A DNA stretch of 47,567 nt, taken from NCBI GenBank assembly GCA_029253965.1, contig JAQWYM010000059.1, positions 1-47,567 on the forward strand, written 5' to 3'. Below, in pieces: positions 3,535-41,755 of this stretch (its first letter is position 1; each line of letters starts with the position of its first letter). A model generated the notes under the pieces. It made no database searches. It was not told the origin of the DNA and was given only the letters and a program-made list of their open reading frames with translations. The DNA comes from Gammaproteobacteria bacterium. GTDB lineage: Bacteria; Pseudomonadota; Gammaproteobacteria; UBA4575. A program made the position numbers and the translations under genes.

Positions 3535-4674
3535 TTAATCCATGTTGCTGAGGATGGCATCTTTAACATCAGCAAGCTTGGCATCAATCGTGATCAGCTT
3601 GCTGGTGGCTTGTTTGATGGCTGTATCAGGATCTTTCAGACCATGGCCTGTCAAGGTACAGACAACGGTACTTCCAGCAGGAATTTTGCCACTCTCAATG
3701 TCACGCAAGGCGCCAGCAACGGAGGTTGCTGATGCGGGTTCACAGAAAACCCCTTCGGATCCGGCTAAGAGACGCTGAGCAGCAAGGATTTCATAATCAC
3801 TGCACTCATCAAACCATCCACCTGATTCTTTGTGAACCTTCCAGGCATTATCCCAACTCTGTGGATGACCAATACGGATAGCGGTTGCTAATGTTTCTGG
3901 GGCATCCACCATTTCACCGCGCATAAAGGGGGCACTTCCTGCCGCTTGATAACCAACCATCTGCGGACGTTTGGCACTCTTCATACCCTGTAAGAACTGA
4001 CATTTGCCAGAGCAAAGACTGCAAGACTGGGTGCATTGATTAGCGTATTCTGAATAACCAATCCAATGCGCCGTAATATTGCCCGCATTCCCAACCGGTA
4101 AACAGTGAAAGTCTGGAGCAACACCGAGCTCATCAACAATCTCAAAGGCTGCTGTTTTCTGCCCCTGTAAGCGGTACGGATTAATACTGTTTACAATATC
4201 GACCGGCGCTTCTTTTGCAACCTCTTTAACCAGTCGCATACCATCATCAAAGTTACCTTTAACCTGAATCACAACAGCACCTTGAATCATCGCTTGAGCT
4301 AATTTACCCATGGCGATCCTGCCCTCTGGGATCAATACAAAAGCCGAGATGCCTGCACGTGAGGCGTAGGCTGCAGCAGAAGCTGAGGTGTTACCAGTAG
4401 AGGCACAGATAATTGCACGACTGCCATCTTGTACGGCCTTGGTCACTGCCATAGTCATACCACGATCTTTAAATGAACCGGTGGGATTAAGCCCCTCATA
4501 TTTAAGCAGTAGACGAATATTATACTTTTTTAAGAGCTCAATATTATGGCACTCAATCAGTGGCGTATTGCCTTCACCAAGACTGATAATGCGACCATTA
4601 GGGTCAATTGGCATACGCGAGATATAGTTATTAATAAGCCCGGTATAACGATTTTCAGTTGCGTTTGTAGTCAT
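3535..4674 (-). CDS. thrC: threonine synthase (short type) with Cys-rich insert
   Basis: SLGEGNTPL, PLP-lysine motif EGLNPTGSFKDRGM, CASTGNTSASAAAY, VFCEPASA, TLTGHGLKDP; downstream of hom. Confidence 0.95.
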   Translation of the reverse strand: MTTNATENRYTGLINNYISRMPIDPNGRIISLGEGNTPLIECHNIELLKKYNIRLLLKYEGLNPTGSFKDRGMTMAVTKAVQDGSRAIICASTGNTSASAAAYASRAGISAFVLIPEGRIAMGKLAQAMIQGAVVIQVKGNFDDGMRLVKEVAKEAPVDIVNSINPYRLQGQKTAAFEIVDELGVAPDFHCLPVGNAGNITAHWIGYSEYANQCTQSCSLCSGKCQFLQGMKSAKRPQMVGYQAAGSAPFMRGEMVDAPETLATAIRIGHPQSWDNAWKVHKESGGWFDECSDYEILAAQRLLAGSEGVFCEPASATSVAGALRDIESGKIPAGSTVVCTLTGHGLKDPDTAIKQATSKLITIDAKLADVKDAILSNMD

Positions 4675-39164: not shown

Positions 39165-40205
39165 TTAAGGCTCCAGATTAAGGGATAGACTCTCGTTTTT
39201 CCCTAGGTCATTTATCCACGTGTTTAAAAGCTGTTGCGCTTCTTCAGTCAATGCTTTGGCCTTTCGTCCATGGTAGCGTGCCAATCGCAACTGCGAAGCC
39301 GGCACATTATAATCAATCAAATAGTCTAGTGCAGCAGGAACATCTTGTGGCCGATTACAGATTAATAACATATCACTGCCCGCCTCTAGAGCTTGCTCTA
39401 GGCGTTGCTCTATCGAACCCTGTGAGAGTGCACCTTGCATACTTAGATCATCACTAAAGATAACGCCTTGGAAAGATAGCTGCTGTCTTAGAACTTTTTG
39501 CAGCCAAATGGGAGACAGGCTTGCCGGCTTACTATCCACCGCCTCATAAATCACATGACTACTCATCACACCGGCTAACTGGTTAGCAATAAGCCGTTGA
39601 AATGGAATAATATCAGCATTCCAAATTTCAGCTTCCGAACGTGTATCAATCGACACTTCGGTATGTGTGTCTGCCTTGACACCACCGTGCCCAGGGAAGT
39701 GTTTTGCTACACTTTCCATACCGCCATCACGTAAACCTGATTGAAAGCTTATAGCCAAACGTGAGAGTGCATCAATATCACTGTGAAAGGCCCGATCACC
39801 AATGACCGTGCTCAGCCCATAATCAATATCCAGCACTGGTGCAAAGCTCAGATCAATACCAATATCACGCAGCTCAAAGGCGAGTTGCTGAGCAAAATAA
39901 TGACTTAACTGAACAGCCTTTGCCGCATCTTGGTCAAAGCTATGCCCCAGATTACGGACAGCAGGAAATGCAGTAAAACCATCGCGTAATCGTTGCACAC
40001 GCCCCCCCTCTTGATCGATAGCTACCAGTAAGCGTGGTGATTTAATGGCATGTATTTCAGCAATTAAATCCTTGAACTGGCTCTTATCAATGAGGTTACG
40101 TGTAAATAAAATAACACCACCGACAGCTGAGTGTTGTAACCAATCACGCTCCTTTGGAGTAATTTCAGTTCCTGCCAAGTCAATCATTAGTGGACCGATC
40201 GTCAT
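39165..40205 (-). CDS. nagZ: beta-N-acetylhexosaminidase
   Basis: GGVILFTRN, IDQEGGRVQR, KHFPGHGGVKADTH, FSDDLSM; start ATG 40205 or GTG 40214. Confidence 0.96.
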   Translation of the reverse strand: MTIGPLMIDLAGTEITPKERDWLQHSAVGGVILFTRNLIDKSQFKDLIAEIHAIKSPRLLVAIDQEGGRVQRLRDGFTAFPAVRNLGHSFDQDAAKAVQLSHYFAQQLAFELRDIGIDLSFAPVLDIDYGLSTVIGDRAFHSDIDALSRLAISFQSGLRDGGMESVAKHFPGHGGVKADTHTEVSIDTRSEAEIWNADIIPFQRLIANQLAGVMSSHVIYEAVDSKPASLSPIWLQKVLRQQLSFQGVIFSDDLSMQGALSQGSIEQRLEQALEAGSDMLLICNRPQDVPAALDYLIDYNVPASQLRLARYHGRKAKALTEEAQQLLNTWINDLGKNESLSLNLEP

Positions 40206-40354
40206 AATACTCACTCTATGCTGTTGTCATGAATTTGAGTAGGCTGCCGCAGTCAAACTATTGACTGCTTTCATATAAGTCTAATAATGCTACAACAGAA
40301 GACAGTTTTATATTAGTTTATTGCGAATACTAACTGCTAAACGGCGCTGAATTT

Positions 40355-40378
40355 AAAAAAGGGCACTGATTAGTGCCC
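40355..40378 (-). terminator. intrinsic terminator of the candidate sRNA
   Basis: Minus strand GGGCACT-AATC-AGTGCCC-TTTTTT; no minus-strand protein-coding gene ends nearby. Confidence 0.85.
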
Positions 40379-40452
40379 AATGTAAGTGGAGTCTATGGAG
40401 AATAACAACACCTATGAACTAAATTGATGACACTATGTGTCATCATCATAGG
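40355..40452 (-). ncRNA. candidate sigma-54-dependent small regulatory RNA (~98 nt)
   Basis: Bounded by a -24/-12 promoter and an intrinsic terminator; 5' hairpin; unpaired UGUUGUUAUUCUCCAUAGACUCCAC anti-SD region; no RBS-led ORF inside. Confidence 0.7.
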
Positions 40453-40459
40453 AAATAAA

Positions 40460-40475
40460 TGCAGCATTTATGCCA
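40460..40475 (-). promoter_or_regulatory. sigma-54 (-24/-12) promoter
   Basis: Minus strand TGGCATAAATGCTGCA has exact GG-N10-GC spacing, close to consensus TGGCAC-N5-TTGCW. Confidence 0.75.
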
Positions 40476-40506: not shown

Positions 40507-40538
40507 GAAAAAAATCGTCTTATCCAATCAGTTTAAGC

Positions 40539-40554
40539 TGTAGAAAATGCTACA
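40539..40554. promoter_or_regulatory. palindromic upstream activator sequence for an enhancer-binding protein
   Basis: TGTAG-AAAATG-CTACA (TGT-N10-ACA form), about 90-105 bp upstream of the predicted start. Confidence 0.55.
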
Positions 40555-40654
40555 TATCAGCACAAATCATCTATGCTGCTACAGTATTTAGAAGATTAAG
40601 CTATGCACATTCCAGCCGCCATAAAGTAACAGCCAACACATTTATAAAACACCT

Positions 40655-41755
40655 ATGCCAAAGATTCGTTACCAACAAGACTTACAATCGGAAGAGTTCA
40701 ACCTCGATCCCGCTCAAATGATAGTAGTAGAGCATTTGCATGCGCTGGAGCAGGCCTTAATCAATCACCACGAAGGCAGTAACGGTATTGCTTCACGTGT
40801 CATGTCTCTATTCAGTAACAAGGAAAGCCCGAGCACAGCTGTTCGTGGCCTCTATATCTATGGCACGGTAGGCCGTGGTAAGACCTACCTCATGGATCTG
40901 TTTTATGACTGCTTACCCAGTGATAAAAAGATGCGCATGCATTTTCATCGATTCATGCATGAGATTCATCAGCGACTAAAAAACATCAAAAATGAAGAAG
41001 CTCCGCTGAAGTTAGTAGCTGCTCATTTTCGTAAACGTACACGTATACTTTGTTTGGATGAATTCTTTGTCGCCGATATTGCTGATGCCATGCTGCTATC
41101 TGGACTCTTGGCCGCTATGTTTGAGAGTGGCATTACCTTAGTCACCACCAGTAACTGCACGCCTGACGGACTCTATAAAGATGGTTTGCAACGCACGCGA
41201 TTTCTCCCTGCCATCGAATTGCTTAAACAAAACACCAATATCATCGAGCTCGGTGGTAGAACAGATCATCGCCTGCAGTTTTTACAGCAAGCAGACATTT
41301 ATCATTACCCATTAGATGCCAATGCTGAGCAGGTGATGTTAGAAAACTTCAATCATATTGCCCCTGATGCAGGTAAGGAAAACGAGGCACTAGAGATCGA
41401 AGATCGCCGAATTCAAAGTAAACGTAGTGCTGATGGTGTTGTCTGGTTTGAGTTTAATGACTTATGTAATGGACCTCGAAGTGCAGCAGACTACATTGAG
41501 ATTGCACGCTGCTTTAATACAGTATTAATTTCAAATCTCCCTGATTTAACCGACAATAATGATAGTGCCAGACGCTTTATCACAGCAATTGATGAATTCT
41601 ATGACCGTTCTGTGAAGTTGGTCATTTCAGCGCATGCAGAGGTAGACCAGCTCTACAGAGGCAAGAAACTTGCATTTGAGTTCCAACGAACCGTGAGTCG
41701 CTTAATCGAAATGAGATCCAAGGAATACTTAGCAAAAGAACATAAATCCCTGTGA
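40655..41755 (+). CDS. zapE: cell division ATPase ZapE (AFG1 family)
   Basis: GLYIYGTVGRGKTYLMDLF, RMHFHRFM, LCLDEFFVADIADAM, DGLQRTRFLPAI, FQRTVSRLIEM. Confidence 0.95.
   Translation: MPKIRYQQDLQSEEFNLDPAQMIVVEHLHALEQALINHHEGSNGIASRVMSLFSNKESPSTAVRGLYIYGTVGRGKTYLMDLFYDCLPSDKKMRMHFHRFMHEIHQRLKNIKNEEAPLKLVAAHFRKRTRILCLDEFFVADIADAMLLSGLLAAMFESGITLVTTSNCTPDGLYKDGLQRTRFLPAIELLKQNTNIIELGGRTDHRLQFLQQADIYHYPLDANAEQVMLENFNHIAPDAGKENEALEIEDRRIQSKRSADGVVWFEFNDLCNGPRSAADYIEIARCFNTVLISNLPDLTDNNDSARRFITAIDEFYDRSVKLVISAHAEVDQLYRGKKLAFEFQRTVSRLIEMRSKEYLAKEHKSL

What the first reader, a model, noticed from the sequence alone, without database searches (positions are those of the whole stretch)
40355..40452. 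Candidate undescribed sigma-54-driven sRNA with an anti-Shine-Dalgarno seed between nagZ and zapE
Seen: the minus strand reads CCUAUGA-UGAUGACAC-AUA-GUGUCAUCA-AUUUAGU-UCAUAGG (9-bp inner stem, 7-nt bulge, 7-bp outer stem). An unpaired UGUUGUUAUUCUCCAUAGACUCCACUUACAUU with two CUCCA anti-SD motifs follows, then GGGCACU-AAUC-AGUGCCC-U6. No annotated gene explains the terminator, and an exact -24/-12 element lies just upstream. Known: 5' hairpin + single-stranded seed + U-tailed terminator is the layout of Hfq-dependent sRNAs; Vibrio Qrr RNAs are sigma-54-driven, and GcvB (GU-rich seed) and AbcR (anti-SD motifs) repress RBSs. Inference: a multi-target translational repressor of mRNAs with GGAGA(A)UAACAA-type leaders. 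I do not recognise it as a named family.
Basis: partly seen in the sequence, partly recalled or inferred. Interest (0 to 1): 0.85.

Follow-up and report, generated by a model that had tools for sequence, protein, structure and literature searches.

The report
Conserved sigma-54-driven small RNA gene
Between the zapE and nagZ genes of this uncultured marine bacterium lies a gene for a roughly 95-base regulatory RNA with a sigma-54 promoter, and the same gene sits at the same spot in most related genomes but is in no RNA family catalogue.

Summary
On the minus strand, a GG-N10-GC sigma-54 promoter (40475-40460), a strong 5' hairpin, an unpaired C/U-rich stretch and an intrinsic terminator with T6 (40378-40355) are all present.

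It is not a chance arrangement. A covariance model built from 7 homologs finds the element in 39 of 56 genomes of the same family (8 of 11 genera), and in 1 genome of another family.
- In 30 of 30 loci examined, TGGCA and TGC of the promoter are invariant.
- zapE lies divergently upstream in 30 of 30 loci, and nagZ directly downstream in 27 of 30.
- The terminator helix covaries: 4 of 7 pairs carry compensatory changes.
- The family consensus carries a near-invariant AUGUUGUUAUUCUCGACUCCUCCUGG segment.

The window's copy is a diverged member. It keeps GUGUUGUUAUUCUC and GACUCC, but its 5' hairpin is lineage-specific. Rfam 15 has no match, and no paper was found.

My reading is a trans-acting, probably Hfq-assisted, base-pairing sRNA. 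Three genomes (two scored 100% complete, one 87%) have NtrC as their only GAFTGA-bearing activator, which points to nitrogen control. However, the upstream sites are not NtrC-like.

No transcript evidence and no targets were obtained. I rate it a new family of a known kind, of moderate interest.

The parts
40355..40449 (-). Predicted small RNA of about 95 nt, from the inferred start to the end of the U-tail
   Evidence: Covariance models R1 and R2 match 40355-40449. The fold has z = -4.8. The start is inferred from promoter spacing and was not measured.
40460..40475 (-). Sigma-54 (-24/-12) promoter TGGCATAAATGCTGCA
   Evidence: TGGCA and TGC are invariant in 30 of 30 homologous loci while the spacer varies. 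rpoN is present in the genome.
40410..40452 (-). 5' stem-loop: 9-bp inner stem at 40445-40425, with an outer stem that may be only partly transcribed
   Evidence: It is specific to this species. Relatives have a different 5' stem-loop whose 3' arm is [A/G]UGUUG.
40379..40411 (-). Unpaired segment GUGUUGUUAUUCUCCAUAGACUCCACUUACAUU. The family-conserved parts are GUGUUGUUAUUCUC (40411-40398) and GACUCC.
   Evidence: It is unpaired in the minimum-free-energy fold. It aligns to the near-invariant family block AUGUUGUUAUUCUCGACUCCUCCUGG.
40355..40378 (-). Intrinsic terminator GGGCACU-AAUC-AGUGCCC followed by U6
   Evidence: The helix is 100% paired in 30 distinct sequences, and 4 of 7 pairs carry compensatory changes.
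40531..40566 (-). Block conserved within the genus, about 70-105 bp upstream of the promoter, including the inverted repeat TGTAG-N6-CTACA. It is a possible activator site.
   Evidence: Alignments. Its function is unknown. It matches neither the NtrC sites of this genome's glnA nor the palindromes seen in other genera.
39165..40214 (-). nagZ (beta-N-acetylhexosaminidase), the co-oriented downstream neighbour
   Evidence: NCBIfam NF003740, E = 6e-126. nagZ lies directly downstream of the RNA in 27 of 30 loci and also in G203 of another family.
40655..41755 (+). zapE, the divergent upstream neighbour
   Evidence: NCBIfam NF040713, E = 3e-127. zapE lies upstream in 30 of 30 loci.

Best explanation
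Positions 40449-40355 on the minus strand encode a free-standing small regulatory RNA. It is transcribed from a sigma-54 promoter and ended by its own intrinsic terminator. It belongs to an undescribed RNA family that sits between zapE and nagZ in most genomes of this uncultured or sparsely cultured marine gammaproteobacterial family.

Shown by comparison: the promoter, the terminator, the position in the genome and a long sequence block are all conserved.

Inferred: the RNA acts in trans by base pairing. It would use the single-stranded U- and C/U-rich block just upstream of the terminator. That block is AUGUUGUUAUUCUCGACUCCUCCUGG in the family and GUGUUGUUAUUCUCCAUAGACUCC in this window. It would pair with purine-rich ribosome-binding regions of several mRNAs, probably with the help of Hfq, lowering their translation.

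Its synthesis needs an enhancer-binding protein. In three relatives the only GAFTGA-bearing activator found is NtrC, so nitrogen limitation is the most likely signal in those genomes. In this genome the activator is either NtrC or a second activator found only in this genus.

The window's copy is a diverged member. Its 5' hairpin has been remodelled and its C/U-rich seed partly changed.
For: **Genome equipment.** rpoN is present, as is hfq. There are two true activators: NtrC with NtrB, and an orphan regulator.

**Conservation within the genus.** The two sister species keep the promoter, UCAAUUUAGUUC, GUGUUGUUAUUCUC and the terminator, the last with a C-G to U-A compensatory change.

**Conservation across the family.**
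- Four relatives with NagZ at 55-61% identity show the same layout.
- Model R1 hits 39 of 56 family genomes, in 8 of 11 genera.
- Of the 30 loci examined: 30 keep TGGCA and TGC at fixed spacing, 30 have zapE upstream, and 27 have nagZ directly downstream.
- The terminator is 100% paired in 30 distinct sequences, with 4 of 7 pairs compensatory. The whole tested structure has a covariation score of 0.289 against 0.168 in shuffles, reached by 0 of 500 shuffles.

**The seed.** The 20-mer complementary to UUAUUCUCGACUCCUCCUGG was searched at up to 3 mismatches in all 56 genomes. It gave 40 matches, 30 of them exact. All but one coincide with covariance-model matches; that one (G022, 2 mismatches) was not examined.

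**Folds.** The folds show a 5' stem-loop, an open C/U-rich segment and the terminator.

**Sibling copies.** G014 has three tandem copies. Copies 2 and 3 keep the seed and terminator, but they lack the sigma-54 promoter and have a sigma-70-like TTGATT-N16-TACATA instead. That marks the seed as the functional module.

**Outside the family.** A homolog in another family (G203) has the same promoter and lies upstream of nagZ. It carries CGACUCCUCC twice.

**Activator.** In G015, G008 and G052, NtrC is the only PF00158 protein at E <= 1e-10 that has a GAFTGA/GSFTGA motif and a Walker A motif. The other hit is NtrX-like and has neither.
Against: **No transcript evidence.** The one RNA-library run that held part of the stretch covers only nagZ (39813-40028), and all runs laid were contigs.

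**No target found.**
- Duplex energies on 1383 start regions were no better than for shuffled seeds.
- Complementary 8- to 10-mers near start codons were not enriched.
- The nagZ and zapE start regions show no complementarity (mean z = 0.15 and 0.13).

**The seed in this genus is weaker.**
- In the two sister species the conserved GUGUUGUU is predicted to be paired, not open.
- The CUCCUCC motif of the family is lost in this genus. The anti-Shine-Dalgarno reading is therefore weaker for the window's own copy than for the family.

**The activator is uncertain.**
- Canonical NtrC sites, such as those upstream of glnA, are found upstream of 0 of 30 copies.
- Instead, 18 of 30 carry G.CAA-N3-4-TTG.C palindromes. 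These resemble the published NtrX motif (PMC9223101, passages read).
- The genus of the window has neither kind of site.

**Limits on the conservation argument.** Within the genus the spacer is about 70% identical overall, so blocks of 13-14 identical bases alone would not be significant. Related genomes are also not independent samples.
Confidence: 0.62

Rival explanations
1. The element is a cis-acting leader. The sigma-54 promoter would be the promoter of nagZ and the downstream genes, and the terminator would be a regulated attenuator. The short RNA would then be a by-product, possibly with a second role in trans.
For: The RNA is co-oriented with nagZ and lies 90-190 bp upstream of it in 27 of 30 loci. 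It is also upstream of nagZ in a second family, where zapE is not the neighbour. The consensus scan found no sigma-70-like promoter on the minus strand between the terminator and nagZ in the window.
Against: - In G014 the sigma-54-driven copy and a second copy are separated from nagZ by unrelated reading frames, and each has its own terminator.
- Terminators are strong (7-11 bp, G+C-rich, 6-8 U). No alternative anti-terminator pairing is conserved.
- A 20-26-nt invariant block has no evident role in an attenuator.
- By eye, relatives have -10-like hexamers between the terminator and nagZ (sequence). This is my own reading and was not tested.
Confidence: 0.12
2. The RNA is a protein-binding or decoy RNA. 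Its repeated C/U-rich motifs would titrate an RNA-binding protein, or mimic the 3' end of 16S rRNA, rather than pair with specific mRNAs.
For: The C/U-rich motif recurs in loops. The 5' hairpin loop of one genus reads UCCUC. The G203 homolog carries CGACUCCUCC both in the loop and in the open segment. No specific mRNA target could be predicted.
Against: There are only one or two motifs per RNA, far fewer than in known sponge RNAs such as CsrB or CrcZ (recalled). The conserved block extends well beyond the C/U motif (AUGUUGUUAUUCUCGA), which fits extended base pairing better. The layout of a seed next to a U-tailed terminator is that of pairing sRNAs.
Confidence: 0.1
3. The element is a small protein gene. 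In the window the reading frame would be AUG AUG AUG ACA ... UAG (18 codons). In the family consensus it would be AUG UUG UUA UUC UCG ACU CCU CCU GGU UAG.
For: Short open frames can be read in the sequence.
Against: - The frames differ between lineages, and they run into the terminator in one genus.
- The window's frame has no counterpart in the sister species.
- No Shine-Dalgarno sequence precedes them.
- The block is invariant at all three codon positions, which points to constraint on the RNA rather than on a protein.
Confidence: 0.03
4. The window's own copy is a decaying remnant of the family RNA. The promoter and terminator would still be recognisable, but the function would have been lost along with the CUCCUCC seed in this small-genome genus.
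For: The genus has lost GAGCCUC, the canonical 5' stem-loop, CUCCUCC and the upstream palindromes. The three species differ from each other in the seed's 3' half. The covariance score is lower here: 71 bits against 78-94 bits for most members of one genus.
Against: The promoter -24/-12 elements, GUGUUGUUAUUCUC, UCAAUUUAGUUC and a covarying terminator are kept in all three species of the genus and in three metagenome contigs. That would not be expected without selection, given about 30% divergence in the rest of the spacer.
Confidence: 0.08

Closest known systems
Qrr1-5 of Vibrio (LuxO/sigma-54-dependent, Hfq-dependent sRNAs; recalled knowledge)
   Same: Both have a sigma-54 promoter that needs an NtrC-family activator. 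Both are about 100 nt with a U-tailed terminator and a long, nearly invariant pairing segment. Both can occur as several sibling copies in one genome.
   Different: There is no sequence or structure match: no Rfam family, Qrr included, reaches threshold. The seed is different. No LuxO-type TTGCA-N3-TGCAA sites (recalled motif) are visible. The genomic position differs (zapE-nagZ). Sibling copies here can switch to a sigma-70-like promoter.
NrsZ of Pseudomonas aeruginosa and GlnZ of enterobacteria (RpoN/NtrC-dependent sRNAs; PMC9731577 passages read; PMC4253122 abstract seen)
   Same: [quoted passage not shown] That is the regulation inferred here for genomes whose only GAFTGA-bearing activator is NtrC.
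   Different: NrsZ lies downstream of ntrBC and is processed from repeats. GlnZ is cut from the glnA 3' UTR. This RNA is a primary transcript in another locus with an unrelated sequence, and no canonical NtrC sites lie upstream.
   Same: Both use an unpaired C/U-rich motif complementary to GGAGG-type ribosome-binding sites, placed in a loop and/or a single-stranded stretch, as a multi-target seed.
   Different: They are unrelated in sequence, in host lineage and in promoter type. Pairing with ribosome-binding sites has not been shown here.
MicA (best Rfam score in the region)
   Same: The only resemblance is a U-tailed terminator and an A/U-rich stretch.
   Different: The score is 18.4 bits against a gathering score of 41, with E = 2.6. 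This is noise, not membership.

Membership tests
Sigma-54-dependent transcription unit | -24 GG and -12 GC elements with exact 10-bp spacing (TGGCAC-N5-TTGCW-like) | tested here: met
   The window has TGGCATAAATGCTGCA at 40475-40460. TGGCA and TGC are invariant in 30 of 30 homologs while the spacer positions vary.
Sigma-54-dependent transcription unit | rpoN and at least one GAFTGA-bearing enhancer-binding protein are present in the genome | tested here: met
   rpoN scores 474.5 bits. NtrC carries GAFTGA and the orphan regulator carries GSFTGA.
Sigma-54-dependent transcription unit | Upstream activator sites for an identified enhancer-binding protein | tested here: inconclusive
   NtrC-type GCAC-N7-GTGC sites occur upstream of 0 of 30 copies. 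G.CAA-N3-4-TTG.C palindromes occur upstream of 18 of 30, against 0.06 expected. The window's genus has neither kind, only a genus-conserved block.
Sigma-54-dependent transcription unit | Transcription depends on RpoN in vivo | not testable with these tools
   This needs an rpoN mutant or in-vitro transcription.
Hfq-dependent trans-acting sRNA (general class) | Intrinsic terminator hairpin followed by a U-tail of 6 or more | tested here: met
   The helix covaries. Tails are 6-8 U in the homologs.
Hfq-dependent trans-acting sRNA (general class) | Conserved single-stranded seed | tested here: met
   The family block is exact in 30 of the 40 matches and open in the folds. In the window it is open. 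In the two sister species, however, GUGUUGUU is predicted to be paired.
Hfq-dependent trans-acting sRNA (general class) | hfq is present and the RNA binds Hfq | tested here: inconclusive
   hfq is present at 98.5 bits. Binding cannot be tested here.
Hfq-dependent trans-acting sRNA (general class) | Identified mRNA targets with complementary sites | tested here: not met
   No signal above shuffled controls. No long complementary site turned up in 56 genomes. These methods were crude, and no CopraRNA-type analysis was possible.
Any Rfam 15 family (including Qrr, GlmY/GlmZ, CrcZ and NrsZ, which I recall are in Rfam) | Score at or above the family's gathering threshold | tested here: not met
   There were 0 matches in the whole window and 0 in five homologous loci. 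At E up to 10 there were only noise hits of 18 bits or less.

The most novel reading that the evidence does not exclude
[quoted passage not shown] It would be an anti-Shine-Dalgarno RNA whose invariant 26-nt block masks strong GGAGG ribosome-binding sites of many mRNAs, acting as a broad translational brake. Sibling copies placed under sigma-70-type promoters would feed other signals into the same seed. An NtrX-like, GAFTGA-less regulator bound at the conserved CAA-N3-4-TTG palindromes would gate it, linking nitrogen status to the neighbouring cell-wall recycling gene (nagZ) and cell-division gene (zapE).
Probability: 0.2. Interest if true: 0.65.

Novelty: new member of a known kind. Interest (0 to 1): 0.5.

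Why it matters
Few sigma-54-dependent small RNAs are known. Those I can name are Qrr, GlmY/Z, CrcZ/Y, NrsZ, GlnZ and NfiS, partly from recall and partly. None of them comes from this largely uncultured marine lineage.

This is a clean, family-wide case with four features:
- an invariant promoter;
- a covarying terminator;
- a 20-26-nt invariant seed;
- sibling copies that swap promoter type.

It would give a ready entry point to post-transcriptional control, possibly of the nitrogen-starvation response, in organisms with only one or two enhancer-binding proteins. It would also make a well-supported new entry for RNA family databases.

It does not reveal a new kind of mechanism.

Tried and rejected
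**Expression.** The look-up of sequencing runs listed 24 runs. Only one was on record as RNA (X20, share 0.06). Read laying placed its single contig on nagZ, 39813-40028. X18 and X19 are labelled metatranscriptomic but are probably DNA; they cover 40063-40393 only partly. All four runs were contigs, so nothing can be said about expression either way.

**Targets.**
- A genome-wide sliding duplex scan timed out.
- Duplexfold of the seed against 1383 crude start regions gave 472 regions at or below -18 kcal/mol. Three shuffled seeds gave 306-508.
- Complementary 8-, 9- and 10-mers near 3564 candidate starts numbered 64, 13 and 2. Shuffled seeds averaged 71, 16 and 4.9.
- The exact 12-mer GAGAATAACAAC in 56 genomes hit almost only the RNA genes themselves.
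- The 20-mer search at up to 3 mismatches did likewise.
- The nagZ and zapE start regions of 26 loci showed no pairing signal.
- In the window, CAUAGGUGU (40416-40408) is complementary over 9 nt to the zapE start region (40649-40657). This is not conserved in the sister species, so I set it aside.

**Activator.**
- NtrC sites were sought and not found.
- The strict IHF consensus, which I recalled, occurred at one fixed position in only 7 of 30 loci, against 2 of 30 control windows. That is weak.
- The orphan activator of this genus has no close ortholog outside the genus: at most 37% identity, which is paralog level. It cannot explain the family-wide promoter.

**Metagenome scan.** The scan for the two conserved blocks returned 3 contigs. 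All are near-identical to the two sister species, so they add no diversity.

**Plasmids.** The plasmid collection gave no match.

**Covariation in the 5' stem.** On the model-fitted alignment, the CAACAU:AUGUUG helix is almost invariant: 5 of 6 pairs vary on one side only. It is therefore neither supported nor refuted. The rows of the window's genus are out of register there, and I re-read them by eye only.

**Literature.** Searches found no description of this RNA. Supplements are closed and were not seen. About 1.7 million PubMed Central articles are not searchable.

**Other limits.** I did not establish the taxon name. The closest named records are MAGs labelled Thiotrichales or Gammaproteobacteria.

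Full report
**What is in the sequence.**
One search shows the spacer between nagZ (39165-40214, minus strand) and zapE (40655-41755, plus strand). Both genes were named by NCBIfam equivalog models. On the minus strand it reads, in order:
- TGGCATAAATGCTGCA at 40475-40460, a GG-N10-GC element;
- a 5' hairpin at 40452-40410;
- the open stretch GUGUUGUUAUUCUCCAUAGACUCCACUUACAUU at 40411-40379;
- the terminator GGGCACU-AAUC-AGUGCCC-U6 at 40378-40355.

The terminator is picked up by the consensus scan. The strict promoter pattern occurs 21 times in the 1.47-Mb assembly, mostly inside genes.

By the usual -12 to +1 spacing, the RNA should start near 40449. The covariance-model match begins at the same place.

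**The organism.**
- The window is contig C4 of an 88-contig, 83%-complete, 44.8% G+C assembly.
- The nearest records are MAGs labelled Gammaproteobacteria or Thiotrichales, and the runs that hold the sequence are marine.
- The genome has rpoN and hfq.
- It has two true enhancer-binding proteins: NtrC next to NtrB, and an orphan response-regulator type.
- A third PF00158 hit is NtrX-like and lacks both the GAFTGA and the Walker A motif.

**Conservation.**
Within the genus, two species plus three metagenome contigs that duplicate them keep the promoter, UCAAUUUAGUUC, GUGUUGUUAUUCUC and the terminator. The terminator carries a C-G to U-A compensatory change. They do not keep the 5' hairpin. With the spacer about 70% identical overall, these blocks alone would be weak evidence.

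The decisive step was to look upstream of nagZ in more distant relatives, with NagZ at 55-61% identity. Four loci show the same design:
- a TGGCAT-N5-NTGC promoter;
- a 5' stem-loop whose 3' arm is AUGUUG;
- the open stretch UUAUUCUCGACUCCUCCUGGUUA;
- a G+C-rich terminator with a U-tail.

A covariance model built from seven sequences (A2, R1) then matched 39 of 56 genomes of the family. That is 8 of 11 genera. Three genera gave no match: 0 of 13, 0 of 2 and 0 of 1 genomes. Of the 30 loci fetched:
- 30 have TGGCA and TGC at fixed spacing, while the five spacer positions and the flanks vary;
- 30 have zapE divergently upstream;
- 27 have nagZ directly downstream. The three exceptions are one locus cut short by its contig end and two loci with extra copies or inserted reading frames.

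The terminator helix is paired in 100% of cells over 30 distinct sequences, and 4 of 7 pairs show changes on both sides. A second model (R2) was run on one genome from each of 150 other families of the class. It found one further homolog, G203. That copy has the same promoter, is again upstream of nagZ, and carries CGACUCCUCC both in the hairpin loop and in the open segment.

**The functional core.**
I searched the reverse complement of UUAUUCUCGACUCCUCCUGG at up to 3 mismatches in all 56 genomes. It gave 40 matches, 30 of them exact. All but one coincide with covariance-model matches; that one (G022, 2 mismatches) was not examined.

G014 has three copies within 3.5 kb between zapE and nagZ. 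The first has the sigma-54 promoter. The other two keep the seed and terminator but have a different 5' part and a sigma-70-like TTGATT-N16-TACATA (the promoter reading is mine, by eye). Sibling RNAs that share a seed but not a promoter are what one expects of a trans-acting pairing RNA, not of a leader.

In the folds the C/U-rich block is open between the 5' stem-loop and the terminator. Its CUCCUCC core is complementary to GGAGGAG-type ribosome-binding sites.

The support is weaker for the window's own copy. That copy retains UCUCC and GACUCC but not CUCCUCC. In its two sister species the GUGUUGUU block is predicted to pair with an upstream AACAGCAC or AACAACA. In the window, a species-specific perfect 9-bp hairpin takes up that upstream arm and leaves the block free.

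**Which activator.**
Sigma-54 needs an enhancer-binding protein (established knowledge). In G015 and G008 (both scored 100% complete) and in G052 (87% complete), the PF00158 hits at E <= 1e-10 are:
- NtrC, an equivalog match next to NtrB, with a GAFTGA/GSFTGA motif and a Walker A motif;
- the NtrX-like protein, which has neither motif.

By elimination NtrC should drive the RNA in those genomes, which points to nitrogen limitation as the signal.

Against this, canonical NtrC sites are plain upstream of glnA in G000 and G015 but occur upstream of 0 of 30 RNA copies. Instead, 18 of 30 copies have G.CAA-N3-4-TTG.C palindromes at fixed positions, against 0.06 expected from shuffles. These fit the CAAN3-5TTG motif reported for NtrX (PMC9223101, passages read). 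They could equally serve the divergent zapE promoter.

The window's genus has neither kind of site. It does have an activator found only in that genus, with at most 37% identity to any protein elsewhere in the family. I therefore hold NtrC control at roughly even odds for the family, and leave it open for this genome.

**What it is not.**
- Rfam 15 gives no match at gathering score in the window or in five homologous loci. At E up to 10 only noise appears; the best is MicA at 18.4 bits against a gathering score of 41.
- It is not a conserved small reading frame. The frames differ between lineages and the block is invariant at all codon positions.
- The neighbours nagZ and zapE show no complementarity to the seed.

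**What is missing.**
- No transcript evidence could be obtained.
- My crude target scans gave nothing above shuffled controls.
- Literature searches found no description of this RNA. Supplements and non-CC papers were not searchable.

**Verdict.**
This is an undescribed, family-wide, sigma-54-driven small RNA gene, and the window carries a diverged copy of it. It is a new family of a well-known kind (compare Qrr, NrsZ and GlnZ; and recall), so it is of solid but moderate interest.

| Claim | Confidence |
|---|---|
| Genuine RNA gene with a sigma-54 promoter | about 0.85 |
| Trans-acting pairing through the C/U-rich block | about 0.6 |
| NtrC / nitrogen control | about 0.45 |

The overall confidence given for the combined statement is 0.62.

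Noticed in passing
window 40283-40325 (minus strand): A 43-nt block, CGCAATAAACTAATAYAAAACTGYCTTCTGTTGTAGCATTATT, lies between the RNA's terminator and nagZ. It is the best-conserved part of the spacer within the genus. A 50-nt contig over it has 4-5 times the depth of its neighbours in two runs. It could be the nagZ promoter or operator, or a further element.
   Followed up: no
window 40408-40416 (minus) and 40649-40657 (plus): The RNA's CAUAGGUGU is perfectly complementary to ACACCUAUG, which spans the zapE start codon. The match is absent in the sister species, so it may be chance or specific to this species.
   Followed up: partly
G000 contig C13:741-2129 (locus L008): An orphan sigma-54 activator (receiver domain, AAA+ domain with GSFTGA, and HTH). 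No histidine kinase gene was seen among the reading frames read upstream. It is found only in this genus: 81% identity in G001 and at most 37% elsewhere in the family.
   Followed up: partly
G000 contig C35 (locus L009:35-2403); also G015, G008 and G052: A histidine kinase paired with an NtrX-like regulator that lacks the GAFTGA and Walker A motifs. The regulator is conserved across the family. The CAA-N3-4-TTG palindromes upstream of the RNA in other genera fit the published NtrX motif.
   Followed up: partly
G000 contig C27:10380-10395 (plus strand): A second intergenic sigma-54-like promoter, TGGCATGAGAATTGCT, is followed by a non-coding stretch of up to about 290 nt before the next long reading frame, which may start about 100 nt earlier at a GTG, by eye. 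It may be a long leader or another RNA.
   Followed up: no
L139 (G015:C5:93500-98000), about 955-1385: Between glyQ and glnA, a sigma-54-like promoter (TTGGCATAGCCCTTGCT) points towards glyQ, with about 400 nt before the reading frame. Motifs resembling the RNA's upstream sites (AATTGCC, GCCACAAATTGTC) lie upstream of it.
   Followed up: no
L141 (G014:C1:983500-990500): Three tandem copies of the RNA are interleaved with four reading frames of 132-201 aa that match no NCBIfam model. The two extra copies share an upstream block, AATTGCCGCAGTC.TG.CGCAAACAG, and a sigma-70-like promoter.
   Followed up: partly
G000 C53:10050-10757 and G062: These have only a weak RuBisCO-large-like hit (E = 6e-20 and 2e-21). 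Two other genera of the family have a true RuBisCO (E about 1e-135). The family therefore seems to mix autotrophs with organisms that carry only a RuBisCO-like protein.
   Followed up: no
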